64,000 nucleotides of DNA from Azolla caroliniana (GCA_043228905.1 JBHGNT010000005.1:18290001-18354000); one strand, 5' to 3'; counted from the stretch's first letter, positions 16,631-59,323 are shown. The notes: generated from the letters alone by a model not told the origin. A program made the numbers and translations.

Positions 16631-17959
16631 GTTCGCACCTTTCTCAATTCTTGCGCATGCGAACGTCGTGTACTATAATGGCAATGAAGTGCCACGTGGC
16701 GGCGTTTTAATGCACTATAAATAGCCCACTACTAGTCTTTTCAAAGTGCCCGTTCACCCCTCCTTTTCATTGCATGTGGCCGTTCGCTCCTCGCCATTGC
16801 ATAGTTTGGGTTTGATTGGATTTGATTTGATTTATTTATTTTTTTAATTGATCTTGTTAATATGTATCTGGCGCAAACGGACCCTTCTCCGGATTGTGCC
16901 TGCCGATTGCATGACCGGTTGTCGTCTCGTCATGCTTATCGGTGTCCGGTGCGGTGTCAGCTTTTGTCTACTCAAACGGGTTTCTTGGCATGGGTCCATA
17001 GTATGGTTTGAGTCGAAACCCATTCACCCATTTACCCATAACTTCGCCGGCGAGTGTTCCTAGCTGGTAAGAACCGTTGAACTCCCGTGTAATCCAATAT
17101 GGTCCGGTCCACCGAAACCGTAGCTTCCTCGGCATCTTACCCATCTGGGTCTGGAATACAAGTACTAGCTTGCCGATCCTGAACCTTTTTTCGTTACCTT
17201 TCCGGTGTCGATCGACAAATGATTTCCTTCTCTGTTGCTCCAGTTCCATATGCATCAGGTTGGCGATCCGGTGTTCCTCCAGTTCGCATAGTGCTGCTAG
17301 CCGGATTGTTTCCGACTCCTTCTCGTTCAGGCGTTCCCTAACCTGTAACCGCAAGCTCGGAACCTGGAATTCGATTGGCATTACCGCTTCCAACCCGAAT
17401 GCCAATTGGAAAGGCGTTGTCTGGATACTTGTCTTATATGCTGTCCGGTAGGCCCAAAGTGCACTGTGCAACTTTGTATCCCAATCCGTCCGGTTCTCAT
17501 TGGCAATTTTCCGGAGGATGTTTTGTAGTGTCTTATTAGTGGATTCGGCTAATCCGTTGGCTTGCGGATAATATGGAGTGCTTCGCTTGTGCACCACTGC
17601 ATAGAATGTCGTCAAGCTCTCCACCACTTGTCCTAGGAAATGCCCTCCTTGGTCGCTGATTAGGTCAATCGGACATCCATACTGGCACCAGATATATTCA
17701 TATAAAAACTTTGCCGTGGATGCCGCGATGTTGTCACGTAGTGCTTTGGCCTCCACCCACTTGGTGCAGTAGTCCGTAGCGACAATTACGTATCAGTTGC
17801 CGGTTCTCATTGTTGGTGGTTTAAATGGGCTGACGAAGTCCAGCCGCCATTTCTGAAATGGTTCCAATGGCAGCACCGGCCGGTGAGGCATTCGTGCCTG
17901 TTCCGTTGGTTGGCCCATCCGTTGACACAAATCGCATTCTTTAGCATACCGGATGACGT

Positions 17960-18754
17960 TGTCGTAGTGTAGGTTGCACACTATGTGGAAATTATATTTT
18001 TGTCCCTCCGGATAGAGAATGGAGTGCTCGGTGAGAACCGGGAGGAAAACGGCATACCGACAAGGAGGAAAACGGCATACCGGCAAGGAAGAAAACGGAT
18101 AAAGAGACATAAATGTAAAAAAAAAAAAAAAAGGAAATACTCACTACTGCGCAAGGTGTGATTCAAACTCTACACCTCCACGTTGACAAACCCCAACCTT
18201 ACCATTACATTAATTTATCTTAAGTGTTTTAAATATAGATTTAATACGTATAAGACCTTTATTTATGCATACCTTTATTAAAAGGTAAATCGTGTATTTT
18301 TTTAATATATGAAAAAGAAAAAACACGAGACACTAAAAATAACTCATGCACATCTAGCGTGCATGAGCCCTATACTTAGGAAATAAAAAAGCATCACATG
18401 CACATTTAGTGGACATGAACACTTTTTGTAAAAAAAAAAAGCATGAAGCCATGCTTAGCTCTTCCTTCCTTATATAAGGAGGAGAGAAATATATAAAGGG
18501 TTGTTGATTATTTGGATTAAGTATTAATCAATACAAAAATTATTCGTGGGATTCACGATTTATACATCTACTTCTCTCTTAACACCCTAAGTACCAATTA
18601 ATATAGTATACTCGTGTGATTCACGAGTTTCTTATCTTTCTCTTCGCTATTTATTCATAATTAATCTCTATCTCACGAACTTCTTTCTCCTAGTCCAAGA
18701 CCTTTGTGGTTCCCACCCGACTCACGCAACGATTCGGAGCCGAAAGGCACGACA
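17960..18754 (+). mobile_element. Solo LTR (TGTCGT..ACGACA) inserted in the B1 integrase, 4-bp TSD ACGT
   Basis: Splits LWWPTTLKDV|IRYAKECD; ACGT at 17956-17959 and 18755-18758; TATATAA at ~18471. Confidence 0.85.
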
Positions 18755-21700
18755 ACGTCTTTTAATGTTGTTGGCCACCATAGGCCACTCTACCATATTT
18801 TCCTTGCCGTAGCGTCCCCACCATAATGCCCTCCGGCAACACCGCAGTGTGCTTCGCGCAGTATTTGGTCTTTTTCGTCGCTGCACACCGCACGCCGCCA
18901 TATGCCGTCCGCGCCTTTATGGTACAGTGTGTCTTGTAGTAGATAGAAGTGCCGGCTTTGTAATGCTAATCTTTTCCGCTCGTCTTTGTTCATCTCCTCT
19001 GGAGGTAACCCAGTGCTGAGGAATTGGTGCATGTTAGTGAGCCACTTGTCCTCCTCGGCGATCATACCATTTGTTGCCGTTTCGGCTGTGACCCTAAACA
19101 AGGCTGCATCCGGAAATTCGTTTGCGACCCCATCCCCGGTTTCTCCGTAGTCTAACTGGCTCAAATAATTTGCAACCACATGTTGTATAGCTGGCCGGTG
19201 AAATATCTCGAACTCAAATTCCTGTAATAATAATGTTCACCGGGCCAGCTTACCCGTGAGTGATGCTTTTGAGACCAAGTAAAGTAGCGCCGAATGATCT
19301 ACATGAAAGGAAAATTTCCTCCCCAACAGATAGTGTCGGAACTTGGTGACGTTATAGATCATGCCCAAGGCTTCTCTTTCCGTTGTAGAGTAATTCCGTT
19401 CTACCTGGGACAGATTACGACTGGCATAATACACGGAGCTACATTAATGCACTCCCTATTGCTATGTCGGACGTGTCTATGAATACGTGGAATTCGTTAG
19501 ACCAATCCGGAGGTTGCACCACCGGTGCTTGTGATAGTAGTACTTTTAATGCCCGGTAAGCCTTCTCTTCTGTGTCCGTCCATTGAAATGGTGTCCGGTG
19601 CACCGCAACATGCAATGGTGTGGCCAGGTCTACTAGATACCGGAGCATCCGGCTATGCCACCAGATTTGTCCTAGGAACCGACTCAATGCTTTTGTCGTG
19701 GTGGGTGCCGGTGCCTCCAAAATTGCTTTGACCTTGTCCGAGTCCACTGCAATACCATCCTTGCTAACGATGTGGCCTAGTAGGGAACCGCTTGACACAC
19801 CGAACACGCATTTTGCCAGGTTAAGGCTTAACCGGTAAGCCCTACATTTCTCAAGACATAGTCGGAGGTATTGGAGGTGTTCCCCTTCCTGGTTGTACAC
19901 AGCGAAATCGTCTAAGAAAACCTGCATGAATGCTGGAATAAATTCTTCGAAAATCTCCATGATTATTCGCTGAAAGGTTGCTGGCGCAGTTTTAAGTCCG
20001 AACATCATGACTACGGCGACAAATACTCCCCATTCAGTAACAACAACGGTTTTCTCCTGGTCATCGGGGTGCATCCGGATCTGATTGTAGCCGTTGAACC
20101 CGTCCAAGAAACTATAAACTTCGTGACTGGCTACTGCATTCCGAACTCCATCCGTAAAAGGGAGAGGGAAGGCGTCGGTTACCGTTGCCGCATTCAATTT
20201 CCGGTAGTTGACACATACCCGGATTTTTCCGTTCTTTTTCGGTACGACGACTATTGGGCTCAACCATGTCACCTTTTTGACCGGTCGGATGAAGCCTACT
20301 CGTAACAATTTGTCGATCTCGTCCTTTACTTTTGCTGCATAGTTAGGGTTCATCCGGTAGCGCCGTTGCGCCACCGGTTTGGCATCCTTACTCAGATGTA
20401 TCTGGTGTTGATACAACTGAGGATCTAGCCCCCGCATGTCCTCGTACGACCATGCGAACACGTCCCGAAACTCCTTTAATAAGGTGATCGTTGTCATCTT
20501 CCTTTCGGGAGTCATTTCTTTGGCGATGTGAACCGGTCTTGCGTCTTCTGCGGTGCCTAGGTTTACCTCTTCCAGCTGAGAGGCTTTGGCGCATTGAGAT
20601 ACTGCCAATTCCTTCTCCAAAGCTTCCTGCGCTTGCCGTAACTCTCTGATGGCTTCCTTATCCGGTTCTTCACCGGCGTCCTCCAATATTATGTATAGTG
20701 CCACTACTTCGGCGACATCCACTTCAAATAAGGGTACAATTTTCGGATTCTCCTATAAGTACTGATCGACCTCCTCATCAGCCAATCCCTCAAGCATGTT
20801 GACACATTCCGCATACAACAGTGTTAGGTCCTTGCTGGTACTTGCCCGTACTTTCGCTTTGCCGCGCTTGAAAGTGATTATGTTTTTCTGCCAGTTTTGC
20901 TTGATGTGCCCTGTTTTTAACCATGGCCGGCCCAGCAACAGTGGGTATGCTCCTTGTGCATTAAGCTGGAGGACTACTGCCGAAATGCGGAATGCGTGAC
21001 CTCCGATAGTCACTTCCAACTCTCGTATCAATCCGGTAGGTCTTACTGAACTTGTGTCCGCCATCCGGAGCCAAAACGGGCACGACTCCCAGTCCTAGAT
21101 TCCCAAGGTATTACAAGTTCGGAGGTTAATCACATTCACGCCGGATCCTCCGTCTATAATCGTTCCGAGTAGTTCTTGTCCCTTGACGATGGTTGTGATA
21201 GCCGGATTGCTCGTGTCGACTACTGTCGGTCCTTCCTCCGGGTTAGAAAAGAATGCCAGAGCCAGTGGCGTGCCGACCACAGTCATGCCCGTATTCAGTC
21301 CTTCCGTAAACCGAGGTACTAACTGCAATAGCCGACCTAATGGCAATGTGATTTTGCATTCTTGCAACGCCTACCATGTTGGGTTTTCCGCTTGGCTATT
21401 GCTAGTGGGCTCCTCTAGATTCTCCTTTTGTTGCTCCAGTTTTGCCACATTATGCTCGTTTGCCTTCTTTACCCATTCGGTGGCCTGCTTCCGGATGGCT
21501 TCTTGGGTTTCCCACTCTGTCACTTTTCCTTTTGCCCTCGTGGTTGTAACGCTCATTCCGTTCCCCATTATAGTCCCGATATCTATCATACCGGTCGCGG
21601 TCATAAGCGTTTCTTCGATCACCGTACCAGACATCTTGTGCCAGCTGATAACGCTCCTCTCACCACCAACGCTCTTCTTCCTCCTCCTGGTTGCTCTGTG

Positions 21701-23629
21701 GTTCGATTTTCCGGACCGGTGGTGCTTGCCGATTTAGCAAGTTATACTCGCACTGATCCATTGTGTGGTTTCTGGAATGGCAAAGCAGGCATTGAGAACG
21801 CATGGTGCACTCCAACGCCGAATGTCTGGCATTCAGGCAAGTTGTACATTGAACTGCTTGTCGAAAGAGGAGGTCTTCATCAGTCGGTAATGTTCGTTGG
21901 AGTGCCCCCATCGTTAGCCACGAGCTGGAGGTTTCCATTTCCCTGACTCGGTCTATGACCTGGTCGACGGAACTCATGCAGAAATCAATGATTGTGCACA
22001 CCGTTCGTAGGGGTTCCCGGAGTGTTGCTAGGAATATCGCCTTAGTCTCTTCCTCCGGTGGTGTCCAACTGAGCTGGCTGTGCATTCTCTAGAATCGGAT
22101 TACAAATTGTTGAATGTTCTCCGTGGGCTCCTGCTTGATGGTATAGAATAGGCCGATCATTTCCCGTTGATCCACTTCTTTGTGAAAAAAATGTAACAAT
22201 TTAGATTTCAAGGCCTCAAACGTCGTGATGGTACTGGGATCTTGCGTCAGGTGCCATCTAGCGGCGGGCCCCTCCAGGGTCATGCCAAACTCCGCCATCT
22301 TTGAGCGTTCTGCTTCGGCCACGATTAAGCGTTGTGACACATGATTCACTTCCCAGGTCTGCTGAAATGCATAGACGTGAGCCTCTGCGTCCAGATCATC
22401 CCGGTACTTGGGATATTGAAACGGCATGTTGTCATCCGGTGTTGGAACACGGGCTGGTGGTGTCGGAGGTCTCTCTTCCTCCTCCGTCGGAGGTCTCTCC
22501 GCCTCCTCTGTCAGAGGTCTTTCTTCCTCTATGGGAGGTCTTTCCGCCTCTGCTTCGATTGTTGGGGTTTGCTCAGTCCTTGGCCAATCTGTGGCATCCA
22601 GCTCTGTCAATTCTGGTTCCGGTGTCGGTGAGGTATCCGATTCCTCGTCCGCTGGTCCGTCTGGGGTGTCGTGACTGCTGTGGTAATTAGAATGAGCGCT
22701 ATATTCGCCGTCCGAGTCCGATTCAAAGGTCGAAAATGGTTCGGAATCGCCGTCTCCTTCAGCTAATGCTTGCAGCAGGGATTCCGTTTCCCGAAGACTA
22801 CTCAAGTTGCTTCCTTCATTGGGGTGGAAATCTTGTTGCAAACGGAGTGACTCCTCAGCCACTCGCCGGATCACTTTGGAAAATGATTGATCTGAACGAA
22901 TTTCTTCTGCCGCTCGCTGGAAGGCCTCTCGCTTCCACATCCACTCAACGAGTCTCCTTGTTCGATCCGTAACCGGCCCGCTCGCTGGTCTAGTCATCCA
23001 TTCCCGCCGCTGTTCGTTGCACTTATGCAGGAATCATGGTCGCCAAAAACTGTGTTACTCCTTAGGGCTAGACAATAGCCTAACACAGGGTGTCTACAGA
23101 AGACGCTTCACCAAAGGGTGTTACGGTGGAACAGAGTTAGACCAACAATTAATCAGACCTTAATCGTTTACTTAATCAACAGATCCTTAATCTTAATACA
23201 CGCGTAAGATAGAAAGTAATTAGCACAGAACGGTAATCAATACACAGAGATAAGGAAATAGAGCTTTATTAATTATCCGTAATCATTTACAATGTAACCG
23301 GGCCTTTTTATAGATCACTGGCTCTACCTACAAAACAGTACCAACCGGCACCCTAATATGAACCGGTCCGGATCCGGATAGGCATACCGATTCCGCTCCA
23401 TCCGTTCATTTCTCTAAAATCTACTTAATTACTTAATATCCTAATAACAACCTCCGATTATTTTTGCCCTTCTATATTCTGGACTGTCCTTCACTCCTTG
23501 CCGGCTAGCTAACAAGAAGAAGATGTCGGAGTATGACACCGACAGAGAAGAGTCGGATCGGAGCGAGACACCTTCCGGATATAATTGGAGCGAGTTGACT
23601 ACCACCGAGATGTTGAAGAAGTTGATGTA

Positions 23630-24168
23630 TAAGGAACCCAAACCCTAAAATCTCTTGAGTAAGAAGTATAATAGAGGCAAAACTCACAAACCTTACAATC
23701 CTAAGTCCTCTAATATGTTGAGGAGAAAAGAAGAAAAGTAGAAAGAAGCTCTCAAACCCTAACCCTAGAAGGAAAAGATGAAAGAGAAAGTGATAAGGAG
23801 AAAGGGAGGCTACAAAACCCTAACCCTAGAAGAAGAGGAGAAGATGAAACCCTAGTGGTACACCCCTAGAAGACAAAATGGGTGACCCCATACTAAGCCC
23901 TATTCCTCCCCTCTTATAGAGGAAAGAGGCGCCTATTTTAACATTACATGCTTCTTTGTTTTTTTCCCTTTATCACAAAAATAGAAGGGGAGCAAAATAC
24001 TCCTTGATTTGTAGCAAAAGAGACCCGAACTCTAAACTGCTCATATATATTTATAAGCCACTAAACTACTACAAGTTATTTATTATTATTATTTTCATTT
24101 ATATATGATTTCATAAGATGTGCATGGAAGCTTGCTTTTTCTCATAGTGCACACGCCACGCCACGACA
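23630..24168 (-). mobile_element. Truncated LTR of the TGTCG..CGACA gypsy lineage (U3 end at 24168)
   Basis: Ends CCACGACA; local similarity to the reverse complement of the 48709-49427 LTR (aaccctag..gtggta..ctcccctcttatag); left boundary approximate. Confidence 0.6.
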
Positions 24169-27100
24169 ACACTCTCCACTACGAGACTATACGACAGCCC
24201 CTAGAGCTCATGCACATAGATATATGTGGGCCCATGCCAGAGTGATCACTAGGAGGCTCCTGGTACTTCATCACCTTTGTAGATTACTGTACACGGAAGG
24301 TCTGGTCCTACTCCATCAGGTCCAAAGACGAAGCGCTCAAGGTCTTCACTCGATGGACAACTGAAGTGGAAAACCGATCCGTTTACAAAGTGAAGACACT
24401 CAGATTCGACAACGGAGGAGAATATACCTCTGGAGCTTTCAAATAGTACTTGTTCGACAAAGGGATTCAACACCAAAAGACCGTTCCTTACACACCCATG
24501 TAGAATGGAGTGGTAGAACGCATTGACGATAATGCTCTAGCAAGTCGGACTGAAGCTGGAGTTTTGGGTCGAGGCATTGCAGACGGTGGTATGCTTAGTA
24601 AATCTTTCGCTGTCAAAAGCAATCAGGCTTGGAGTGCCACCTGCGCTATGGTCAAGCAAACAATTGACCTATGATAGGCTTCGTGTATTCGGATGTGAAG
24701 CCTACGCATTCATCCCCAAGAAGAAAAGGATCAAGTTGGCACCCCATGCAACGAAATGCATATTTCTCGGTTATGGAACCGATGGGAACTTCGGCTACCG
24801 GCTATGGGATCCAGAGAACTAGAAATTGAGCCGGAGTAGTGACATAGTCTTCAATGAAGACTCTATCTTGTCTCAACGGAACCAACAAAAAATAGTTGGT
24901 GAAAGGGTATCCTTCAAAGACGATAGAGTTGACAAATAGTGAAACTCGAACAAGCCAACAATATACCTGCTAACTCCGAATCGGCAACAGGTCCAATAGT
25001 CGAACTCGAAGACAAAGCCATCAAAGACAGAGCCGATTCAACAAGAGTCGAACAAAGCAAAGTCAAAAAGATGCGATCTGAGTCGACAAAGCCCATAGGG
25101 GAGAATGCCATGACACTACTGAAATCCCAGCATGGGGGTGGGTCACCTAACAAGACTACTAACACAAATGGTTCAACAAATACTAGTTGACCGACAGAGC
25201 GGATTGAAGAATCCAAACCACTTATCTCAGCACCCAGGAGATCTGGACGAGCTCAAAGGCCGATAGAGTTTTATCAACCGGGCCTCGACTACGTCAACTA
25301 CAATGATGCAGGCGAACTAGGCACATATGACGAAGCTATGGCAACAACGGACGCCGATACATGGCTACAAGCCATGAGATCCGAAATGGACTCGATTCAC
25401 AAGAATTAGACATGGGAGCTGGTTGAATTACCAGGTGGAAGAAAGCTGCTACCTTGCAAATGGCAAATATGTATTTGACTCAGAGAAACCCAAGTACAAA
25501 GCTCAACTTGTTGCGAAAGGGTTCAAACAATAACATGGGGTCGACTATGATGAGATATTCTCACCAGTAGTCAAGATGACCACCCTCAGACTTTTAGTAG
25601 GAGTTGTGACGACAGAAGACCTAGACCTAGACCAGTTGGATGTAAAGACGACATTCCTACACGGAGATTTGGAAGAAGACATTTACATGTCTCAACCTGC
25701 AGGCTTCACGATAACAGGGGAGGAAAGTCACCTCGTATGTTACTAAAGAAAAGCCTCTATGGCTTGAAACAAGCGCCGAGGATGTGGTACCAGGCAGCTT
25801 GGATACCGCCGATCCGACTCCGACCCATGCATGTATGTTCGGCAACTGGCCAACGAGTCTAGGATTTACCTCATCCTATATATCCACGACATGTTGATTG
25901 CATGAAGTAATCAAGCAAAGATCGGAAAGCTGAAGCAGAGCCTTCACGACAAGTTCGCGATGAAGGAACTCGGACAAGCCCATCACATACTGGGCATCAG
26001 GATCGAGCGAAATCGGATGACCAAGACTCTTCGACTCTCCCAGTCCGATTATATCCGGAAGTTGCTGAGGCGCTTCAACATGGAGAATGCGAAGCCAACA
26101 CCAACACCGCTTCCAACGTCGATCCGACTATCAGACAGAGACTCTCCTTCAATTGACAAGGAGAGAGAGCTTAATGGAAAGATGCCCTATGCATCGGCTG
26201 TAGGAAGTATCATGTATGCAATGGTGGCAACCCGACCCAACCTAGCTTATGCCGTAGGAGTGGTTAGTCGGTACATGTCAAACCCATGACAGAAGCATTG
26301 GGAGGCCGTCAAGCATATCTTTAGGTACATGAGAGGGACCGAAGATACACAACTAACCTTCGATTTGACAACCTCATACGAAGTCGAAGACTACACTGAC
26401 TCCGACTATGCCAGAAATATGGACAATCAGAAGTCAACATCTGGCTATATCTTCACCTATGGTGGTGGTGCTATATCATGGAGGTCGAAACTTTAAGAGT
26501 GTACAACCCTGTCAACCATGGAGGTCGAGTACATAGTAGCATCAGAAGCACTGAAGGAAGCGATTTGGTTGCATCGAGTGTCAACTGATTTTTCAGCTAC
26601 AAGCCGAATCGACTGACCAACGCCTACCATATATTGCGACTCACAGAGTGCAATACACCTCATCAACAATCCTGTCTATCATGCAAAGACAAAGCATACT
26701 GAGTTGCGGTATCATCACATTCGGGAGCTCATAACCGAGAAGAGGCTCGAAGTCGGGAAGATCGACACCGAGGTGAATATCATTGATTGCCTGACGAAGC
26801 CACTCCTAGATTAACGCTTCAGAGCACTAAGGACAAAGATGGGACTGCGACAAGCGATCGAGCAGAAGAAAGTTGAATGAGGAACAGAAGGTAAGAGTTG
26901 ACCGAATCAATCATGATAATGAGCCAGTCTAAGCTCGACATAGACCTCACCTCTGCCGACTCGGCTACATGCCAACCTACTTGTAACATAAATTTAGATT
27001 AGTATTGTAATCTTGGTTTATGGGGGAGATAACCGCAAACACATGTACATGTAGGAAAGAGTAGTCCTTTTATGGGGGAGTTTGTTGACATAAAAGGCCG

Positions 27101-27265: not shown

Positions 27266-27666
27266 AGAAATAAAGAGAGCTTCCATTAAAGCTTGATATG
27301 TGTGTCTATATCTTCTTGCCTTCCTTCTGTGTTGTTTACTGAGCATAATCAATAGGTCCTCACATACGTTTCCACGCATATCTGTCCCTCAACTAGTATC
27401 AGAGCAACTTGCTACGCGGTGGCAACAGACCACAAAAAAAGACCAGGTCAGTAAAATCTCACATTCAAAGAAGAATATGGCTTCAACATCCAGAACAAGA
27501 GTTTAAATCAGAAAATTCGCTGGCAAAAACTTTTCCCTTTGGAAGCAGATGATGCAGGACATGCTGATCATCAGAAGACAAGTCGAAGCCATTCAACACA
27601 ATGAAAAACCTGCCTCGATGACAGTCAAAGAGTGGAGATCTATAGACGAAATCGCACGCTCCACCA

Positions 27667-30600
27667 TGTTGAGAAGCAAGCTCAACATGGTATGTGATGC
27701 TTATTGGGAAATAAGCTATAGTAGCTATTTAGCTACTTGTGAACATAAAGGAGAAACAACTAATTAGCTACTGACAGCTATTTAGCTGCATATGTAAGTA
27801 ACTTATTACTTAGGTAAAAAGTAAGAGAGTAGGTAAGTAAGAAATATACAGGAAGTAGAACTCAGAGAGAGAGAGTGAGGATAGAGAGGAAGAACTCAGA
27901 GAGTGAGAGTAGAAGAGAGAAACAAATGAGAGCAAGTAGAGCTCTGCGTGTAATGAAATAGAAGAAGTTTTGGCTGCTACAGAGGTAAGTCTCCTTCCCC
28001 CTTCCCTTCTATGTTTGAGCACCAAACGATCCAGCACACCACAATCCGCTGCGCACATAAGAAGAGCCCGAGTGCCTTCTTCACGTTTTCTTAACATGGT
28101 ATTAGAGCGAGTTGCTCATAAAGAAGAGTACAGAAGTGCATAGATCTGAGAAAGGTATTTCTCTGTTGCTGATCTGAATCAAAAAGTTACTTGTTGAAGT
28201 AATTGTAGCAGAAACCCTAGTTTGGAAGAGATAATGGCTGCAGAGAATGCGGGCCAAATAGTTACAGAGAAACTAGATAAAAACAATTTCCCAGCGTGGA
28301 AATTTAGAATGACAAATTTCCTGATGGGGAAAGGATACTGGGATTACATTGAAGGAGACCTAGAAGAGGCTCCGGAGATCCCAGAAGAAAATGCCACAGC
28401 AGCACAGATTAAAGCATTCAAAGATTGGAATCAAGGGGCAAGGAAGGTAATGCATTGGCTCTCACTTAGCATCTCAGATTCGATGCTTGGGCACATACAG
28501 GATGCTATGCTCCCAAAAGAAGCTTGGGATAGTTTGGTAAAACTGTTTGCAGGAAACACAAAAGCTAGAAAGCTATAGTTGAAGACTGAGCTAAATACCT
28601 TAGAAAAAGGTAAGATGCAAATAAATGAGTATGCTTTGAAAATAAAGAGCATATGTGAACCACTTGCTTCTATCAATGTAAAGATAGAAGATGATGATAA
28701 GGTAGAAATATGCTTGAGAGGCTTAGGACCTCAATACAAAAGCTTTAAAACCTCTATGCTTACAAGGGATAGTATCCCAAGTTTTCCAGATCTGGTTTCA
28801 ACGCTTGTAGTAGAAGAAAGGAATAAGATGGATGATGTAAATAAAGGAAATCTTGAGAATGAGGGGCAAGCCCTATATAATAGTGCTGGAAGCGGCCGAG
28901 GAAGAGGCCATGAAAGATTTGGCTCAACAAGAACCAACAATAATGGTTATCAAGGAAGAGGACAACAAACCATTAGAGGAAGAAACAACAACAGAGGCAG
29001 GGGGAGCAACCAAGGTAGAGGTAAGCAAACATACGTAAATGATGATGTCTATTGGTATTGTGGAAAACCAGGCCACACACAGGTTGAATGTTATAAGAAG
29101 CAAAATGATGAGCAAAGAGGAAAGAGATAGTAGAATAACTATGCCCAAACTAGTGAAGATTGTGAAAAAGATGGTGCATTTGTGGTACAACATGAGATAG
29201 CAGTAGTGGCTGAAAGCTCACAAAAATGTAATGAAGAGTTTACATGGTATGTAGACTCGGGGGCATCTAACCATATGACTGGACATGCAAACTGGATTGA
29301 AAGGTTAAGAGAACCAGAGATTCCTGGCTATGTACAGACGGGTGATAATAGTACTCACCAAATAGAACATGTTGGAGATATCCCATTGTGGGAAGAAAAA
29401 GGAAAGACAAAGTATATGTTGAATGTAATGCATGTTCCAAATCTTGCTAAGAATCTGATTTCTGTTGGATAGATAGTAGAGCAAGGTATGCAAGTAAAGT
29501 TTAAGCAAAGTGGATGCTATATAGAAAAGAATGGGAAGCTCATTGCAAAAGGAAAACGACAAGGAAGAATGTTTATTTTGGATGTTGACATGCCTAGACA
29601 GATTTCAGCTATGTTTGCAAATGGAATGAGTGTAATCTCAGATGTGGAAATGTGGCATAAAAGGATTGGCCACATAAGTATGCAAACCCTAAAGAATATG
29701 TTGAGAAAAGATGTAGTGGCTGGACTGCCAAAACTGAAAAATTGTGAAATGGGAAAGATATGTGAAGCATGTCAATATGGAAAGAAAAATAGGTTGCCAT
29801 TACCTCATGAAAGACATGTAAGTAAAAATTTGTTGGATTTGGTACATACAGATGTATGGGGACCAACTAAGAATGCATCTATCGGTGGTTGCAGATTCTA
29901 TGTAACTTTTATTGATGATTGCTCAAGGAAAACATGGGTGTACTTCATGAAAGAGAAAAGTGAAGTGTTTGAATGTTTTCGTAAGTTTAAATGCATGGTA
30001 GAAAAGCAAGCAGGTACAAGAATAAAATGTTTAAGATCTGATGGAGGAGGAGAGTATTTCTCCAAGGAATTTTCTGATTTTCTATGCAATCAGGGAATAA
30101 GAAGACAGTGCACATGTAGATATACTCCACAACGAAATGGAGTTGCTGAGAGGAAAAACAGAACATTGGTGAACATTGCAAGGGCTTTGATGACAGAGAA
30201 GAATATGCCATTGTACTATTGGGCAGAAGCTGTAAATACAACAAATTATATTCTAAATAGATGTATAACATCGGGAGTACATGAAGCAACTCCTGAAGAG
30301 TGTTTCTATGGAAGGAAACCTAGTTTAGAACACTTAAAAGTGTTTGGATGCCTTGCATATGTACATGTGCCTGCAGAAGTAAGAAGTAAGCTGGATCCAA
30401 AAGTAGAAAAATGTATTTTTGTTGGCTATTCAAAAGAAGAAAAAGGGTATAGATGCTATAACTCTGTAACAAAGAAGATTGTGACAAGTAGGGATGTAAT
30501 CTTTGATGAGTTAGCCAGATGGTACAGTCCAAAACAGAATCCAGAGACTGATGAAGACAATGAGATTGAAGACAGAGACAAATTTGAAAATGTAGAAGAC

Positions 30601-35921: not shown

Positions 35922-36210
35922 ACTCGATAGTCCGGATGATCGGAAGATACCTCACACGTGTACATTAGGTAAGAAAATTTGGCCATTGATTCATGGAGGT
36001 TGTACCATATCCGACATCAGTGGCCGAGAAAGAAAGAGGGTTGAAGGGCGCCTGAAGGCATGCAGAGCGTTGGGCCCGAAGCCTTTCGCACCCCTTGAAG
36101 AACTTACCCAAGGATTCTCAAAATCATTGCATAAAGCAGCTACAAATGCCTTTCAGGCCCCTTCTGAATCTGATGGAGTTGGCAGCTAGTCCTTCTTTTC
36201 TTTGGGGGCG

Positions 36211-41790: not shown

Positions 41791-41860
41791 CTGGACCGCA
41801 AGATCCGATCCGTTCATCTTCTGCTCTTCTGCCACCTCTTTCACGTCGGGTTCACCAAGA

Positions 41861-44800: not shown

Positions 44801-47800
44801 TCCGCCGGCAGTAGGAACCCGCCCCCACCGATTTTGAGCTCCCGGAGCGTCCCGTCGGTGAAGGTGTGTCCTATGCAGACCGGATCTCGTAAACTGGGGT
44901 CCGACGCAACCCCTCTGATTCGGGACTCGCTGCCCTCCGGTAAGGGTGCCGCGACTGGCCTTACCTTCCGGTCCACAGTCTTGTACTTCGTGCTAACTCG
45001 GGCTGTCCGATCCGACCCGAGCCCCTGACTGAAGTTCGCGATGACTTCGTACATCTCTTCGGAACATACCGGTATTGTTCGGTCTTCGTTAAGGTCTTCT
45101 CCGGCTACCTTCCTCAGCATCCCCAAGGTGTTGTCGAAGGAGACCGCCTCCACGGCTCCGCTGATTTCCTCGTCCGGGCCGAGAACTCCGCACACTCGAA
45201 GTCGCTCCTCCGCCCTTGCCTTTTCTTGGCCAACGATGCCGACTATCATACACCCTCCGTTGTTGGAGAAGCAAAATTTTCTACCTATCGTACAAGGTTT
45301 CTTCGGTTTCGGTTCTATCGTACATCTGTGGGGTCTTTCCCGAGTGTTCGGACTGTCTCGGCCCCATGCCTTGGCAACCCTCTCTAAAAATCCTCCCGAT
45401 TCTCGCCACTGAGGGATTCGCGGTTTTGCTCGTGGTTCGGTCGCACCGTCAGAAATTGAACCGAATGGTGCCTGTCCTGGCTTTTGACCCTCGCGTAGGC
45501 CGAACCGTTGTCTAGCACCTTGGTCTCCATCCGCGCCGCCATGATGTATGGTTCCCCTAATATGACCGGGTGCGAGGACGTCTCTTGTATGAAGAAGTGC
45601 TGGTCAACCTCGACGTCGCCGATCTTGACTCACACGTTCGGGCAGGCCCCGTGCAGTTCCTCGGTGGTGCGCGTCGCCGCCCGTATCTTCCACCCGTGCT
45701 TGGTGTTATTCGGCCACTTTCCCTTCTTATAGAAGTCCATGGACATCAGGTTTATTTCCGAACTGTGGTCCACCAATGCCACCACCGGTTCCTGAACATC
45801 TCCGATCTTTACCGGGGTCTCCGTGGTCGCTTGGGCCCAGTGTGGCCTCGAATAGTGGCTCTCCGCCCACTCATCTTCCAGCGCCAAGTCGTCGATGTGC
45901 GTCGTCCGCACCTCCACCGGTCTTTCCGGTTCCGTCTCCGTCGACAGCCTCTTCCGCTTCACCAAGTCCACAATGGAGTCGTGGAACTCCTTCTTAGCGA
46001 TCCCTAGCACCTCCCGCAATGACAACTCCACTTTGCTGTCGAGGATCTTTTCTTCTAGGACCTTTCGTAGGTCCGTGGTCCTTTCTATTTCCGTCCCCAG
46101 TCGGTATCCGCCCTTCCTAGGGTTATCTTGCGCGCTGGACCCATCGGCATCGTTCCGTCGTTGCCCGAATCGGGTCTCGTATCGTTGTGAGGGCCCGACC
46201 GCTCCGGCTTTCCCCACTCGTTTGTCTTCTACCAGAGCCTCGTAGTTCCGGCAGGCGGCTTCTACGAAGCCCGTCTTCTCCTCGACCGGGTCGCTCCACC
46301 CGGTTATTTCCCGGACCTGTCTCTCAGTGCGGTCCGCTTCATCTTTCCTCAGCCGTGCGCCGGCGAGGCCTTCCAGCATTGCCGACCAGAATCCGTCTTT
46401 GCTCTCCTTTCGGGCCTCGCTGCCCCCGACCCGAATACTGGCCGACGCCGAGTTGTGGATGGCCTCCACGTGTCGGGCCGCTGCCTCTTCCATCAGTCTC
46501 TTCATACCTCCTCGCGCGTCGTTCCGGTTTAGGGCCCTTTTGGTATTGCCGGCGTGCACCCGGCCTTCCCATAGGTACACCACCCGGTTCCTCAACGCCT
46601 CTGCGAAATCGCCGCAGTCCTTCTGAATGTGGCCGACCTCGTCGCACCACATGCACCTGTTCCCTGCTACCGGCCGTCGGTCATGAGCCGGTTCGCCGCC
46701 TTCCCTTCGAGTCTGGGCGATCTGGAGATCCTTTATCGCCCGCGTCAACTCCTCCAGCGCTGCTCCTCCGGACGAGTCATTGACCATGCCGGTCGGAGCC
46801 GACCCGGTTTCGAGCCACTCCCGGGTCTCTGCCCTCCGCCCTTGTGGTGCCGGTTCAAACCTCCTTGCTGTGACAGAGCCCGCACCGACCGCCCCGTTGT
46901 CAGCCCATTCTCGCCGTTTGTCGAAACGGCCACAGACTCTCTTAACCGTAGCCCAGTCGGTCGTCAGCCCGTCTTCGGTTTCTAGCAAGGAGCCGACTTG
47001 ATCCCGGTCCCGCTCGTCCACCGACTTGACGAACAGTAGGACCCGGCTCGTATCCAGAACGGTTCGGTCAAGCGCCGAAAGGCGCGCAAAGCGTTCCTCA
47101 AACTCCCAGAGGAGTGCCGACGCGTTTCTTCCCTTGCCGGGGGACTCCACCCATTCCATGAAGTCCCGTTTCGAAAGCCGGAGCGCGTCGTCTAGCACGT
47201 ATTTTTCTAGGAGTCAGCCTTCGAACTCCTCCCAGGTACGGCTCTCCGCCCGTACCTCGAGCACCTCCGCATGGATGCTCGGCATCGCCACTCGAGGGAA
47301 CCCGACAAGACGCCTCTCTTCCGGAATGTTCCGCATTAGCATTTCTGCCCCGTAGGACGCCAAATACTTCGTGGCATCCTTCCCGCTGAACCGGTCGATC
47401 GTACCGACGACCACCTCAATGGCTCTGTCAAGGGCGTCGGTGCCCTCGCGTGCGCTCAATACCCGATCCACAGCCGAAGCCATGGCCTCCGCAAGATCCG
47501 ACCCCTTCATCTTCTGCTCTTCTACCGCCTCTTTCACGTCGGGTTCACCAAGATGTCGAGGTATTCCTCGTGGATGCGTGGAATGAGGCAGGGCCTCGGG
47601 GGTCTTGTACCGAAGAGCAAGAGACAAAGGAGAAGGGAAGGGACCCACTACGTGTGGGCGTAGATTCACAGGGGCACGGCCCTTCGACACAAAGACGCGA
47701 GTGGGACACCGACGCAGAGAGACACGAATGTATGTATATATATAAATTAACAAGGACAATCAACAAGAAGCACGAAGTCGGTTACAACCGAATAGGTCGG

Positions 47801-48199
47801 CGAACAGATGCCGATGCCTGTTCGTAAACGCTCAGAAAGAAAGGAGTAGGTTGGAGGTGCTGCCGGAAGCACTCGGGCATTCCTCAGAGCAGCGCGAGCC
47901 TCCCGAAAACCTGCACAGAAAGAAGCTACGGAGTTTGGGAGAGAGAGAAGCCTTCGCCCGACAACCCGACAACACTTCGTCCTCTCTAACCGCGATCCGT
48001 CCCCCCCCCTCGTCTCCCTCCTTTTATAGGCAAGGAAGGAGCCGTTTCCCATTAACTTCCTACCTACCGAATCTACCTACCTAGGATCTTCTATGTACCT
48101 AATTCTCTCTTATGTACAACATAAGGCGTACGTGCATGAAGAGCCGGTTCCTACGCTCTGGTGCACCGATTCCGCTTGTGGACGGTTTTCTTCACGACA
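41861..48199 (-). mobile_element. Ty3/gypsy element F1 (fungal-like lineage): 5' LTR 48199-47554, tRNA-Trp PBS, gag-PR-RT-RH-INT with internal deletions, PPT, 3' LTR 42506-41861
   Basis: PBS TGGTGAACCCGACG; gag ATG at 47510 (IDRFSGKDATKY; CMWCDEVGHIQKDC); PR ALVDHSSEINLM; KYKTVDRKVRPV; RT DLYSGYDQF; INT H..GH..C..C and YNPEANGKVE; PPT AGGTGGGGGCGGA; no matching TSD. Confidence 0.92.
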
Positions 48200-48708
48200 A
48201 CGCCACCAAAGTCAAGGAGGAAATTGACAAGTTGCTGAGGGTTGGCTTTATCCGCCCAGTAAAGAAATCTACATGGCTGAGCCCGATAGTAGTCGTACCA
48301 AAGAAAAACGGCAAAATTAGAGTTTGTGTCGACTACCGTAAGTTTAATGCGGCGACGATAACAGATGCATTCCCACTCCCATTTACGGATGGAGTTTTGG
48401 ATGCAGTCGCCGGCCATGAGGTATACAGTTTCTTAGACGAATTCAGCGGATACAACCACATCCGGACGCACCCCGATGACTAGGAGAAAATGGCTTTCGT
48501 CACCGAATGGGGAGTGTTTGTTGCCGTAGTAATGATGTTCGGATGAAAAACGGCACCGGCAACGTTCTAGAGGATCATCATGGAAATATTCAGAGAATTC
48601 ATACCAGCATTCATGCAGGTGTTTCTAGATGACTTCGCCGTCTATAGCCGGGAAGGAGATCACTTTCAGCACCTCCGATTGTGTCTAGAGAAATGTCGGG
48701 CTTACCGG

Positions 48709-49427
48709 TGTCGTGAAGATTTTCGTCCACAAGCGGAAACCCAAGCAACGAGAGCCAAAGAGCGATGTGCAACGTTGCACATGTACATAATGTATTTGTA
48801 ATAATAATAAGGGTAAAGGGTATGGTGCTAGAAATGCCCCATAAGATCCCTAAGGTATAAAGGTGATGTGGTCTTGTGTGCACATCCACGCGCGAGAGAG
48901 AGAGAGGTACTATGCGGTACATAGGTACCTAGTTGTTTGTGAGGAGGTGGGAGTTAAGGGGGCCATCAATCTCACCCTCCCCCTAAATCAAGGCAAATAT
49001 CCCCTTTGAATGAAAGGGGATATTTTAGTCTCGCGTTTGTAAACAGTTTTCCCTCCTTGTGCTATAAAAGGAGAGGGAAGGCACCATTGTGGGGGTTGCC
49101 TATTTTGAGTGTGCGAGGTATACCACATAGGTCAAGCGTTAGGGTTAGGGTTAGGGTTTCTTTGTCTTTTCTTCATCTTCGTCGGTTAGGGTTTCGAGTA
49201 GTTTTGGTGCGGCCTACACGGCCACCGTTTCGTAATCGTTCATTTCGTTTTAATACATCTGGTTGTTCATCTTGTCTCCATCTTCCTCTTGTTCGATCTA
49301 GTCTCTTGTTCTTGTTCTTCTTCTTGAGCAAAGCTTCCATTCCGTGTCCGATTCCTTCTCCTCTACTCCTTAGTCCAAGACCCCCGTGGTCCCGCCCTTT
49401 TCCACGTACGCGCGTAGCAACGCGACA
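48709..49427 (+). mobile_element. Solo LTR (TGTCGTG..CGCGACA) in the B2 RT, 4-bp TSD CCGG
   Basis: Splits CRAYR|LSLILAKC; CCGG at 48705-48708 and 49428-49431; TATAAAA at ~49063. Confidence 0.88.
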
Positions 49428-51932
49428 CCGGCTAAGCTTGATTCTGGCAAAATGTGTATTCAGAGTGTCAAGCGGGGGGCTATTAGGACACATTGTGAGC
49501 AAGGAAGGAATTGTTGTGGACCCAGAAAAAGTAAAAGCAATCGGCCGTTGTTGGAGGCACCGGCACCAACAACAGCCAAAGCATTAAGCCGTTTCTTAGG
49601 CCAAATCCGGTGGCATAGCCGAATGCTCCGGTATCTGGCGGACCTAGCTACACCACTGCATGCTGCGGTACACCGAACACCGTTCCAGTGGACCGACACC
49701 GAAGACAAGGTGTACCGGGCACTCAAAGTACTATTGTCGCAAGCGCCGGTAGTGCAACCCCCGGATTGGGCTAAGGAGTTTCATGTGTTCGTGGATGCGT
49801 CCGACATTGAAATCGGAAGTGCGTTGATGCAACTTACAGAGCCAAGGTAATACCGGCCTGTGTATTACGCAAGCCGAAAGTTATCCCAAGCCGAACGAAA
49901 TTATTCCACCACGGAAAGGGAAGCTTTGGGCATGATCTACAGCGTGACAAAATTCAGACATTATTTGTTGGGAAGGAAATTTTCCTTCCACGTAGATCAT
50001 TTGACACTCCTCTATTTAGTTTCCAAAGCCTCACTAACCGGTAAGTTGGTACGGTGGACGTTACTGTTGCAGGAATTTGAGTTCGAAATATTCCACCGAC
50101 CTGGCATGTGCACACAGTAGCAGACTATTTGAGCCGGTTAGATTCCGGCGAGACTGGTGACAGAGTCCCGGACAAGTTTCCGGATGCTGAGCTAATTCGA
50201 GTCACCGCGGAAATGGCAACATATGAAACGGTGGCACAAGAAGATAAGTGGCTAAGGAATATGCAACAATTTCTGAGCACCGGGTTGCCTCCGGAGGAGA
50301 TGAACCGAGACGAGAGGAAACGCCTGGCGGTACAAAGCTGGCACTTCTGTTTAGTACGAGACACGCTATACCACAAAGGCGCGGATGATATATGGCGACG
50401 GGCGGTGGGCAGCGACAAGAAGAATATAATACTACGAGAAGCACACTGCGGAGTCGTCGGAGGCCATTACACCGGAGATGCTACGGAAAGGAAGATATGG
50501 CAGAGTGGCCTATGGTGGCCGACAATATTGAAAGACGCGGTCCGGTACGCTAAAGAATGCGATCTATGTCATCGAATGGGCTAGCCAACCGAACAAGCTA
50601 GGATGCCGCACCAGCCGGTACTGCTGTTAGAACCATTTCAAAAATGGCGGCTGGATTTTGTGGGTCCATTCAAACCACTGGCACTGAGAACCGGCAACCG
50701 GTATGTGATCGTAGCTACAGATTACTGCACGAAATGGGTAGAAGCCAAAGCCTTGCGCGACAACACCGCGGCGTCGACGGCGAAATTCTTGTATGAATAC
50801 ATTTGGTGCAAGTATGGATGCCCGATCGAGCTAATAAGTGACCAAGGAGGGCACTTCCTCCGCCAAGTGGTGGAAAGCTTGACGTTGTTCTATGCCGTGG
50901 TGCATAAACGGAGCACGCCATACTATCCGCAAGCAAACGAGTTAGCCGAGTCGACGAACAAAACGCTACAGAATATCCTTCGGAAAATCGTCAACGAAAA
51001 CCGGACGGACTGGGATACGAAGTTGCACTGCGCACTCTGGGCTTACCAGACAACCTACAAAACAAGCATCCAAACCACACCGTTCCGGCTAGCATTCGGA
51101 TTGGAGGCCGTCATGCCGGTAGAGTTCCAGGTCCCAAGCTTATGGATTCAGATTAGGGAACGGTTAAACGAGAAGGAATCAGAGGCAATTCGGTTAGCAG
51201 CTCTGTGTGAACTAGAAGAACACCGACTAGCGAGTATCATGCACCTGGAACTGGAGCAACGGCGAAGAAAGGCGTTTGTAGATCGCCACCGAAAAGGAAA
51301 TGAAAAGATGTTTGGAATCGGCAAGCCGGTACTAGTGTTCCAAACCTGGATGGGAAAGATGCCGGGGAAACTACGGTTTCGGTGGACCGGACCGTACTGG
51401 ATCACACACGAGGTCAATGGATCCTACCAGTTAGGGACACTTGTCGGCGAGGTCCTGGGTAAGTGGGACAACGGATTTCGACTAAAGCCATACAAGGGAC
51501 CCATGCCGAGGAACCCATTTGAACAAGGAAAGGCCGATGCTGAACCAGATACCGACATATTGGAAACAACGGCAACCTGATTAGCAATCGGCAACAACGA
51601 AGCCGGTAAGGGGGACAAAGAGCCGGCACAAGGGGTTGGATAAGAGGATGGCAAACTGTCACGAGGCTGGCAAGATTCCTTATTCGGGTAGGGATCCGAT
51701 AGGACCGGAGACGAAATAACCTAACAATTGATATTAAAATAAAATAAAATCGAAACGAATCAAAGAAATCATGCAAAGGAGTGGTGTGAACGGGCATGCA
51801 AATGAGGAGTAAAGAGGCACTTCGAAAAGGTACGAGGGGGCTATGAATAGGGCATTAAACCATCGCCACATGGCACATAATCCTATTATAGTACACGACC
51901 TGGACACGGGTAGGCCCGAAAAAGGTGCCAAG

Positions 51933-55193: not shown

Positions 55194-55705
55194 GGAGCCG
55201 GTGTGGGATTCAACGTACAAGGTACTGTCCCACGAGCGTGCCATGTGTTACCCGGCCGACAAAGGAGCTAAGGACGCCAAGACCAGGGTGTGAAAAGGGG
55301 AATTGTTATTTGGGAATCTGTTGTAATTACTAGTCTTAATATATTAATATATGAGAAGATGTGGAGAGACGGACCGGAATCAGTATGCCGATCCGGATCT
55401 GGACCGATCTCGAATAGGTGCCGGTTGGCACCGTTTTGTACTTCGCACCGGTGACCTATATAAAGGCCCGGTTACAATGTAGTTATCAACGGAGAGAAAT
55501 ATAAACCTTTTGTTTAATCATTGAGTATTGTTCACCGTTCTGTGCTTATTGTATATCTTACACGTGTTAATGACGTATTACTAAGTAACCGATTAAGGTC
55601 CAATTAAGCGTTGTGTCGTAAGTTATCTCGCCATAACACCCTTTGGTGAAGTGTCTTAGGTGGACACCTTGTGTTAGGCTGTTTGTCCGGCCCTAAGGAT
55701 TAACA

Positions 55706-56410: not shown

Positions 56411-59256
56411 TGTTGAGAATCAAGCTCAACATAGTGCAATGTGTGAACACAACTTTTGAGAATCCATGATTACTCAAAGGTCAAGAGTCACACGACTACT
56501 CTCTATACATTAACTATGTGTCATAGAATTATATTCTATGACACATAACTAATGAGTTACATGTTCCCCATGACTCTGAGTCTTCACATTCCCCAAGAGA
56601 GAGAGAGTGGTTGTTGCAAGTTAATGAAGAGAGAGGGTGACTCTATATAAAGCACCCTCCTCATACTTCATACGAAGTCGGTTGTGACTCCTTATTATGC
56701 TACATTTTGTAATTCTTATTCTACTTGTGAAATATACACCTTCTTCTTGAGTATTCCTTTTTCTATCTATCTAGTGTTCTCTAATCTCTCCTCTAATTCC
56801 TCGAACTCGTACACATAACACACATCTCTTCCGCTACACAAGAATCTTCATCAATTCCTTACATGGTATCAGAGCGATTTGGTAGCTTGATGTAGCCCAT
56901 TTGCCTCACCGTGATCGTGTGTTGTGCTCTACGCCAACGTTCAAGAAGAACCGGCTCATCGCTATTGTAGTACCACTACATAGCTCATGTTCGAGAGAGA
57001 AGGAAAAGAAGAAAGGAAGCTTAATCGACAATGAATACTCAAATGGGGAGTGTTCTCCCTAGTGAGAAGTTGGATCACAACAACTTTGCATCTTGGGAGT
57101 ACAAGATGCACCAATACCTTGTCTGCCAAGGCTATTAGGGTTACATCAAAGGAGCACAAGAAATCCGACCCGACCCGAAAGACGCCGACTACGCAACATG
57201 GGAGCAAGCGGCAAGTCGAGTGATGTATTGCTTGGTGACATGTGTTCACAACCACAGGCTCGGCTACATTCGAGAAGCCGAGACGCCGAAGGAAGCGTGG
57301 GAGAATCTACGAAAGATTTTCGCCGCCAACACGACCGCGAGAAAGCTTCAATTCTGCTAACAGTTGAACAACATCCAACAACGGGATATGTCCATCACGA
57401 GCTACACCTTGAAGATCAAGGAGCTTTGTGACTCGCTTGGCTCGATAAGCGTCAACATGGACAATGATGAAATGGTGCAAATATGCCTCGGCAGCCTCGC
57501 ACCACAATTCAGCGCGATGCAAACTGCCGTACTAGCATGGGAGAATCCACCCTCCTTCTTCGATCTTCAATCCATGTTGTTGGTTGAAGAGAATCATGTT
57601 CGAACAAGGAGCAACGCCTCGGATGACCACATGCTCTACACGCATTCGGACTGAGGAAGAGGACGCGGCCATGCAAGAAGAGGCCGATTCGGCCAAGGAC
57701 GAGGCGGACGAGGCCCGACTTACAAAAACAACTCGCAATTTCGGCATCAAGCGGAAGCCATCGAGGAACCTTCGGAAGAAGGGGGAGCTTCCATTCTAGT
57801 CCGAGTCGACAAAACTTGATCGAATCCGGATATTGCAGAAAAATTGGCCACCGCGAAGAAGAGTGCCGAAAGAAGATGCGTGAGTCAGCTTCCACTAGTC
57901 GATAACTCACCAATTACGCCGCCGACTTCGAGTACGATGACTACGGTGGATTATTCGTAATGAGACATAGATTGAGTTCTATCTCGGCCTCTACTTCTAC
58001 TAGTGACTCTGGTCCGAAAGACGTATGGTTTGTCGATTCCGGTGCCTTGAACTATATGACATTGCATCAAGAATGGTTTTGAGAACTTCGAGAGCCGGAC
58101 CGACCCGGCTATGTCGAAACCGGAGACGACACTACGCACCTGATTCGGCACATCAGCAATGTTCCGTTTGGAAAAGAAGTTAAGCAAAATTACATTAAAA
58201 ATGTCTTGCATGTACCAACTATCACGAAGAATTTGGTCTCCGTCGGCCAAATTGTAGAGCAAGGAATGCAAGCTCGATTTAATCAAGGCGGTTGCTTCAT
58301 CGAAAAAGAGGACCGACTCATCGCACGTGGACGAAGAGAGGGCCGAATGTTCATTCTTGACTCGCACGAGATGAAATGGGCCATGTTCGCAAAAGGCATG
58401 AAAGCCGAGTCCGACATAGAGTTATGGCACAAGCGGATTGGCCATATCAACCTTCAAAAGCTCAAAGCGATACAATCGAAAGGAGTCGTCATCGGACTCT
58501 TGACCTTCAAAGAGAGAGAGATTGAAGGCGTATGTGCGCCTTGCCAATTCGGCAAGCAACATCGGCATCCATTTCCAAAGGAGAGGAATGTAAGCAAAGG
58601 CGTACTTGATGTAATTCATTCTGATGTATGGGGGTCGGCTCAAACAGAGACATTCGGCAAATGCCGATACTACGTGACCTTTATCGACGACTTCTCTAGG
58701 CACACTTGGATCTACCCGATGCGGCAAAAGAGCGAAGTGTTCGGACACTTCCAAAAATTCAAGAGTGGAGTCGAAAAAGCTACGAGTCGACACGTATGGT
58801 GCCTTCGATCAGATGGAGGCAAGAATATTTCTCAGATGATTTTACAGTGTATCTATGGAAAGAAGGAATTCGACGAGAGTTTTCGTGTCGACATACGCCA
58901 CAACAAAACGGAGTGGCCGAACTAAAGAATCAGCACATCCTCGAAGTAGCACGGGCCATGATGAACGAAAAGCACGTGCTGAAGTCGTACTAGGGAGAAG
59001 CGGCTAACATGGCCGTATACCTCATGAATTGGTGTACAACATCCGGTGTGCACGACCTCATACCGCACGAAAAGTTTTTCTGAAAGAAGCTGGATCTATC
59101 ACACATCCGGATATTCGGCTCCATTGTGTATGTGCACATCCCTAACGAAAAGTGACAAAAGCTCGACCCGAAGTCGGAGAAATGTATCCTCATTGGATAC
59201 TCACTAGAGCAAAAGGGGTACAAGTGCTATAACTCCTCGACTCGAAAAGTTCGCGT
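56411..59256 (+). mobile_element. Copia G (related to copia A): 5' LTR 56411-56863, PBS 56864-56875, gag-PR-INT, interrupted at 59257
   Basis: TGGTATCAGAGC; SEKLDHNNFASWEYKMHQYL; WFVDSGA; HSDVWG..FIDDFSR; KLDPKSEKCILIGYS. Confidence 0.88.
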
Positions 59257-59323
59257 TGTCGTGAAGAAAACCGTCCCTTAGCGTAATCGGTGCATAGCGC
59301 GCGTGAACCGGCTCTTCACGCGT
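59257..59323 (+). mobile_element. First 67 bp of an F-lineage LTR, itself interrupted by element F2
   Basis: TGTCGTGAAGAAAACCGTCCC.. matches the U3 end of the F2 LTR in the opposite orientation. Confidence 0.75.

What the first reader, a model, noticed from the sequence alone, without database searches (positions are those of the whole stretch)
17956..59323. Gypsy lineage with 4-bp, CG-centred target sites (NCGN)
Seen: paired TSDs ACGT (17956/18755), CCGG (40705/41356), CCGG (48705/49428) and ACGC/ACAC (34350/24169), plus unpaired flanks ACGC (48200), GCGT (59253) and GCGT (59320). Every one has CG in the middle; the only possible exception is ACTC at 35922, an uncertain boundary. Neighbouring copia and B-type gypsy elements have ordinary 5-bp TSDs. 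Established: most plant LTR elements make 5-bp TSDs with weak sequence preference. Inference: this integrase, which shows no chromodomain, targets CpG, possibly methyl-CpG, steering insertions into other transposons.
Basis: partly seen in the sequence, partly recalled or inferred. Interest (0 to 1): 0.8.

Follow-up and report, generated by a model that had tools for sequence, protein, structure and literature searches.

The report
Phygy-type retrotransposons insert only at CG
Six related families of plant jumping genes almost always land on a CG pair and duplicate four bases around it, a habit already published for the moss Phygy lineage; their integrase likely reads the CG sequence itself, and sequence alone gives no sign that it needs the CG to be methylated.

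Summary
Six LTR families with TGTCG…CGACA ends gave 136 non-redundant target sites; 121 keep a central CG in at least one flank (background CG 3.7%). Of 67 two-sided sites, 42 are exact 4-bp duplications and none is 5 bp. Neighbouring gypsy and copia controls make 5-bp duplications and read CG in 4 of 60 flanks. Neumann et al. 2019 list exactly this for the moss lineage Phygy (4 bp, NCGN, tRNA-Trp primer, no extra domain); all four traits are met here, but no Phygy reference was available for a tree. Added here: the motif is VCGB, best ACGT (6.4-fold), a narrowed form of the VYRB preference of 4-bp retroviral integrases; and 101 of 101 homologues have Asp/Glu at or next to the foamy-virus Ala188 target-contact position. 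The methyl-CpG and transposon-steering idea is unsupported but not excluded: flanks are 76% repetitive against 73% at random CGs, and the avoidance of genes is shared by the controls. The scan's earlier notes that I saw do not report this motif; one files related elements under Phygy.

The parts
17956..18758 (+). Family F1 solo LTR (17960-18754) with exact 4-bp duplication ACGT, inserted in the integrase region of the B-type gypsy
40705..41359 (-). Family F2 solo LTR (40709-41355) with exact 4-bp duplication CCGG
41861..48203 (-). Broken F2 element: LTRs 47554-48199 and 41861-42506, gag/RNase H/integrase remnants, target flank ACGC at 48200; the left LTR is followed by a further primer site, so this is a tandem remnant with no second target flank
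47533..47550 (-). Primer binding site complementary to the 3' end of tRNA-Trp(CCA); second copy at 41840-41857
42507..42523 (-). Polypurine tract before the LTR; same tract at 59937-59953
48705..49431 (+). Family F3 solo LTR (48709-49427) with exact 4-bp duplication CCGG, inserted in a B-type gypsy
59253..59319 (+). Target flank GCGT and the first 63 bp of a related LTR, cut off where the next element sits
59320..62254 (-). Family F4 element: target flank GCGT (59320-59323, inside the previous LTR stub), 3' LTR 59324-59936, integrase and RNase H frames
34350..35925 (-). Family F5 solo LTR (34354-35921, internal tandem repeats) with flanks ACGC/ACTC, one mismatch; the correct partner of 34350
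23591..24172 (-). Truncated family F6 LTR; single flank ACAC at 24169, other end lost
13076..23519 (-). Control: B-type gypsy, LTRs 13081-13542 and 23053-23514, 5-bp duplication AGAAG
27662..33056 (+). Control: copia element, LTRs 27667-28096 and 32586-33051, 5-bp duplication CACCA

Best explanation
These are Ty3/gypsy LTR retrotransposons that carry the published hallmarks of the Phygy lineage and insert at a central CG with a 4-bp duplication, likely because the integrase itself reads the target sequence rather than its methylation. Shown: 4-bp duplication, motif VCGB with ACGT best, tRNA-Trp primer site, no chromodomain or extra RNase H, sites as repeat-rich as random CGs. Inferred from retroviral structures: a 4-bp stagger needs a sharp bend at a flexible pyrimidine-purine step, and this lineage has narrowed that general YR preference to CG through base contacts. 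Predicted, untested: the contacts come from the acidic residue three places after the second catalytic Asp and from the conserved L[DE][NH]QH loop of the C-terminal domain. Insertions pile up in other transposons because most CGs of this genome lie there and, likely, because insertions beside genes are purged.
For: TSD counts and motif. Phygy row (4 bp 100%, NCGN, tRNA-Trp 81%, no extra domain). Primer site matches genomic tRNA-Trp genes at 8 of 8 loci checked. No chromodomain or extra RNase H at E up to 1; only a short, mostly acidic tail after the C-terminal domain. T at the first and A at the last TSD position are depleted (A 0.05 against 0.32 at random CGs), as in the foamy-virus consensus VYRB and all four 4-bp retroviruses (PMC4422553). 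Closest solved structures are the PFV and Ty3 intasomes. Asp/Glu in 101 of 101 homologues covering the motif, aligned to PFV Ala188; the 5-bp B-type integrase has Gly there. Flank repeat content, GC and CpG o/e equal those of random CG sites. Precedent for a gypsy-type integrase that binds a CG-rich target directly: ZAM (PMC2527525 abstract).
Against: No Phygy reference sequence was available, so membership is by traits, not by tree; most paired elements here are 6.7-7.5 kb, below the Phygy range of 7.7-10.0 kb. With a larger repeat library the sites lean slightly more to repeats than motif-matched random sites (112 of 135 against 450 of 600, p 0.056; both flanks unique 7 of 66 against 124 of 600, p 0.051), and none of 135 lay beside a host-gene domain against 14 of 135 random sites. 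In retroviruses the Ala188 position contacts bases three places outside the cut, not the central step, and Asp/Glu there abolished strand transfer in RSV (PMC4005685); a one-residue gap makes the mapping uncertain by one place. The structure model is mediocre (pLDDT 68, pTM 0.46) and shows no DNA contact.
Confidence: 0.7

Rival explanations
1. The integrase prefers or needs methylated CpG, and so avoids genes and lands in silenced transposons without a chromodomain.
For: 0 of 135 sites beside a host-gene domain against 14 of 135 (10 distinct genes) motif-matched random sites, p 1e-4 to 2e-3; slight lean to repeats; the duplicated CGs decay to TG/CA (21 of 203 and 11 of 35), so they are likely methylated at least after insertion.
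Against: The two non-CG control families also show 0 of 46 sites beside a gene domain and the same repeat content, so selection or chromatin explains it without methyl reading. No methyl-binding or chromatin-reader Pfam family in the polyprotein. Decay after insertion says nothing about the state before it. Most non-repeat sites had only one flank scanned, which lowers the power of all three gene counts.
Confidence: 0.2
2. A host protein that binds CG-centred sequence (ACGT core) tethers the integration complex, and the integrase itself has only the generic YR preference.
For: The best target is ACGT with a weak G next to it (0.39 against 0.21), like the ACGT core of plant bZIP/bHLH sites (recalled); integrases end in an acidic tail of 0-70 residues.
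Against: The CG sits exactly at the centre of the cut, where a bound protein would block it; ACGC/GCGT and ACGG/CCGT make up 56 of 121 sites; the tail is not conserved in length or sequence.
Confidence: 0.07
3. The pattern is an artefact of boundary calling, of CG-rich surroundings or of copies duplicated together with their flank.
For: The window is CG-rich in places (CpG o/e up to 1.2); 5 duplicate flanks were found.
Against: Duplicates were removed; both LTR ends are fixed TG…CA; controls in equally CG-rich flanks read CG in 4 of 60.
Confidence: 0.01

Closest known systems
Phygy clade of non-chromovirus Ty3/gypsy elements, Physcomitrium patens (Neumann et al. 2019, PMC6317226: passages, section 9 and supplementary table 5 read)
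   Same: 4-bp TSD with NCGN, tRNA-Trp primer site, no chromodomain, no extra RNase H, coding region filling the interior
   Different: Elements here are mostly 6.7-7.5 kb against 7.7-10.0 kb; described there as specific to one moss, whereas the named RT relatives of this one are from the fern Adiantum (up to 76% identity) and the liverworts Riccia and Calypogeia (59-77%); motif resolved here to VCGB
TatI clade (same table)
   Same: 4-bp TSD and tRNA-Trp primer
   Different: TatI carries an extra archaeal-type RNase H, not found here; no NCGN preference is listed for it
Prototype foamy virus and other 4-bp retroviral intasomes (Serrao et al. 2015, PMC4422553; Serrao et al. 2014, PMC4005685; passages read)
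   Same: 4-bp stagger, central pyrimidine-purine step, T and A disfavoured at the TSD edges (VYRB)
   Different: Their preference is weak and accepts any YR step; here it is nearly always CG, with an acidic residue where they have a small one
ZAM of Drosophila (Faye et al. 2008, PMC2527525; abstract read)
   Same: LTR retroelement whose integrase binds and nicks a CG-rich target (CGCGCg) directly
   Different: Different lineage, host and motif

Membership tests
Phygy (REXdb) | 4-bp target site duplication | tested here: met
   42 of 67 two-sided sites exact 4 bp, 0 exact 5 or 6 bp
Phygy (REXdb) | NCGN target motif | tested here: met
   121 of 136 sites
Phygy (REXdb) | Primer binding site for tRNA-Trp | tested here: met
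   Seen after 5' LTRs of F1-F5; matches tRNA-Trp(CCA) genes at 8 of 8 loci checked, of 63 pattern matches
Phygy (REXdb) | No chromodomain, no archaeal-type RNase H | tested here: met
   Pfam at E up to 1 on two 1241-aa frames and 33 integrases; short tails
Phygy (REXdb) | Length 7656-9968 bp | tested here: not met
   18 of 23 paired elements are 6686-7495 bp or shorter than 7500 with only small gaps; none of the un-nested ones reaches 7656 except one of 8453. The paper calls size a weak classifier.
Phygy (REXdb) | RT-RH-INT sequences group with Phygy in a tree (the primary criterion) | not testable with these tools
   Reference fasta and element table are too large to read; no Physcomitrium protein among the 240 listed homologues
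TatI | Extra archaeal-type RNase H domain | tested here: not met
   No such hit
Chromoviruses (Tcn1, Galadriel, Tekay) | Chromodomain at the integrase C-terminus | tested here: not met
Methyl-CpG-directed integration | Preference for methylated over unmethylated CG at the time of insertion | not testable with these tools
   No methylation data; indirect tests inconclusive

The most novel reading that the evidence does not exclude
A lineage spread through mosses, liverworts and ferns has an integrase that reads methylated CpG directly in its target cleft, using the DNA mark itself instead of a chromodomain to land in silenced repeats.
Probability: 0.2. Interest if true: 0.7.

Novelty: new member of a known kind. 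Interest (0 to 1): 0.25.

Why it matters
As a finding it is a rediscovery: the 4-bp NCGN habit was published in 2019 in one sentence and one table row. What this adds is modest but usable: a finer motif (VCGB, ACGT best), six families in another host, the demonstration that CG targeting alone accounts for most of the nesting in transposons, and two named integrase positions as candidates for the CG readout. If the integrase proved to sense methylation, it would be a route to heterochromatin targeting that needs no reader domain.

Tried and rejected
5- or 6-bp duplication: 0 of 67. Pairing of 34350 with 24169: wrong order and different LTR families. Chromodomain lost only in the window's broken copies: absent in uninterrupted frames too. 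Extra steering into repeats beyond CG distribution: not significant. CpG depletion of the flanks as a mark of old methylated targets: no difference from random CGs (o/e 0.92 against 0.93). A named Physcomitrium reference: none in two protein searches or the Atlas, which gave only generic gypsy integrase clusters. Structure model and fold search confirmed an integrase fold but not DNA contacts. Metagenome contigs were used for proteins and primer sites only; their target sites were not read. GingerRoot (PMC6839031, passages) has a 6-bp, merely GC-rich TSD, and SM-Tcn1 (PMC2864245, passages) a 5-bp TSD and a chromodomain; neither fits. PMC7466625 (passages) does not discuss TSDs. A recalled 1992 paper on methylation and retroviral integration was not held and is not used. 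Searches that found no test of methylation dependence for this lineage; subscription papers are mostly outside that library.

Full report
Setting. The window is G000:C5:18290001-18354000 in a 523-Mb genome, a nest of LTR retrotransposons. Self-comparison and Pfam show copia elements, a B-type gypsy family and a second gypsy lineage with TGTCG…CGACA ends. I did not identify the host. The named RT relatives are from the fern Adiantum and the liverworts Riccia and Calypogeia, which points to a non-seed land plant; earlier AI notes call it probably a fern (not tested here).

The observation in the window. Three solo LTRs carry exact 4-bp duplications: ACGT (17956/18755), CCGG (40705/41356) and CCGG (48705/49428). 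ACGC at 48200 and GCGT at 59253 and 59320 are single target flanks; 59320 lies inside the stub of a related LTR into which the next element inserted. The pair 34350/24169 is wrong: 34350 pairs with 35922 (ACGC/ACTC) around a solo LTR at 34354-35921, and 24169 (ACAC) belongs to a truncated LTR of another family. The copia (CACCA) and B-type gypsy (AGAAG) duplications are 5 bp.

Genome-wide test. I searched the genome with six LTRs of the lineage and two control LTRs. Each search scored 40 of 505 to 3584 candidates; I took the 30 best loci each, plus 6 more for F1: 246 loci. After dropping 25 with a damaged end or no target flank and 5 duplicates, and pairing LTRs of one element, 136 sites remained for the lineage and 23 for each control. 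Central CG stands in at least one flank at 121 of 136 sites (F1-F4: 92 of 95; F5 17 of 25; F6 12 of 16); of 203 flank copies 173 are CG, 21 TG/CA and 9 other. Of 67 two-sided sites, 42 are exact 4-bp duplications, 15 have one and 10 two mismatches, and none is an exact 5 or 6 bp; 7 of the 15 single mismatches are C/T or G/A changes at the central CG. Background CG is 3.7% in 80 evenly spread 10-kb tiles. Controls give 3 of 31 and 1 of 29 by the same readout (p 4e-30). An unranked scan of 82 tiles gave 22 CG, 11 TG/CA and 2 other among 35 flanks; a few of these may be false LTR ends.

Finer motif. Against random CGs, ACGT is enriched 6.4-fold (40 of 121), ACGC/GCGT 2.8-fold and ACGG/CCGT 2.1-fold; TCGA, GCGA/TCGC, CCGG and CCGA/TCGG are depleted 5- to 12-fold. 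The consensus is VCGB with a weak G just outside. The two CCGG sites of the window are thus atypical.

Anatomy. F1 copies with uninterrupted frames are 7.26-7.30 kb with LTR pairs over 99% identical and two overlapping frames: gag-protease (712 aa, weak DUF4100 hit) and RT-RNase H-integrase (1241 aa). The primer site matches tRNA-Trp(CCA) genes at 8 of 8 loci checked. No chromodomain or extra RNase H appears at E up to 1; the integrase ends in a mostly acidic tail of variable length.

What is known. Neumann et al. 2019 (PMC6317226; passages, section 9 and supplementary table 5 read) state that Phygy elements prefer the NCGN motif and tabulate 186 elements as 4 bp (100%, NCGN), tRNA-Trp 81%, 7656-9968 bp, no extra domain. 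A study of nested elements (PMC6911290, passages) confirms 4-bp TSDs as commonest in Phygy and reports Phygy nested in Tcn1; a liverwort genome paper (PMC12885004, passages) reports Phygy domains outside mosses. All traits but length are met here. The defining tree could not be made because that paper's element table and reference fasta were too large to read; those files may also hold the finer motif. I put membership at about 0.85.

Mechanism. Retroviruses with 4-bp duplications bend the target at a central pyrimidine-purine step and disfavour T and A at the edges; the foamy-virus consensus is VYRB (PMC4422553, passages). VCGB is that rule narrowed to CG, and PFV and Ty3 are the nearest solved structures. 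Flexibility alone would also allow TA, CA and TG, so base contacts are inferred. Two candidates: an Asp/Glu three places after the second catalytic Asp, present in 101 of 101 homologues that cover the motif, of 120 examined, and aligned to PFV Ala188, where the 5-bp B-type integrase has Gly; and a conserved L[DE][NH]QH loop in the C-terminal domain, found in 21 of 28 named relatives examined, which by recalled topology lies where PFV Arg329 does. Against this, the Ala188 position contacts bases outside the duplication, and acidic residues there abolished activity in RSV (PMC4005685, passages); a one-residue gap blurs the mapping, and the model is mediocre. These residues are leads only. ZAM is a precedent for direct target reading by a retroelement integrase (PMC2527525, abstract).

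Methylation and steering. Flanks hit other background tiles at 103 of 135 sites, against 438 of 600 random CGs (p 0.45), 422 of 600 motif-matched sites (p 0.17), 318 of 600 random positions (p 5e-7), and 14 of 23 and 18 of 23 for the controls; GC and CpG o/e equal those of random CGs. So choosing CG already delivers most of the nesting. Against my reading: with a 1.77-Mb library there is a borderline lean to repeats (112 of 135 against 450 of 600, p 0.056), and none of the 19 non-repeat sites had a host-gene domain within 1.2 kb (5 had retroelement domains, one a weak low-complexity hit) whereas 14 of 135 motif-matched random sites did. The controls, however, also show 0 of 46, which fits selection or general chromatin bias. 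Only sites without a repeat hit were scanned, and 12 of the 19 had one flank only. Decay of the duplicated CG suggests methylation after insertion, not before. Five literature searches found no test of methylation dependence for this lineage.

Earlier notes of the scan. A word search found none with this motif; among the 16 notes shown from this genome none reports it, and one files related nested elements under Phygy.

Verdict. Real, strong and already described: a new member of a known kind, interest 0.25. Direct sequence readout is the likeliest mechanism (0.7); methyl-CpG reading stays open (0.2).

Noticed in passing
window 13543-13560 (minus strand, before the 3' LTR) and just before 55246; L107-L136: The B-type gypsy has no polypurine tract; a sequence resembling a tRNA 3' end ending in CCA sits 2 nt before its 3' LTR in many copies. 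Earlier notes of this scan report the same trait many times.
   Followed up: no
G000:C5:10105608-10112201, C8:17796786-17823371, C16:4989495-5105657; L422-L424: Clusters and tandem arrays of tRNA-Trp gene matches (871-bp spacing on C5, about 1.2 kb on C8), 63 matches in all; this is the primer tRNA of the lineage.
   Followed up: partly
window 40705-41400 and L048/L052 (C5:18570343-18577832): The flank of the F2 solo LTR recurs 240 kb away beside an LTR that still has its primer site and interior: a local duplication of an inserted element, removed from the counts.
   Followed up: partly
window 9124-12364: About 2.5 tandem copies of a 1220-bp unit, 95-96% identical, inside a copia-like coding region.
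   Followed up: no
window 34429-35194: The F5 LTR holds arrays of 135- and 111-bp repeats, and its length varies widely between copies.
   Followed up: no
window 1121-2206, minus strand: Open frame with a partial CCT motif, probably part of a host gene at the edge of the nest.
   Followed up: no
L082/L086 and L087/L099: F3 paired elements are only 5.0-5.3 kb, so this family may be internally deleted.
   Followed up: no
window 48709-49427: The F3 LTR holds three telomere-like TTAGGG repeats in tandem.
   Followed up: no
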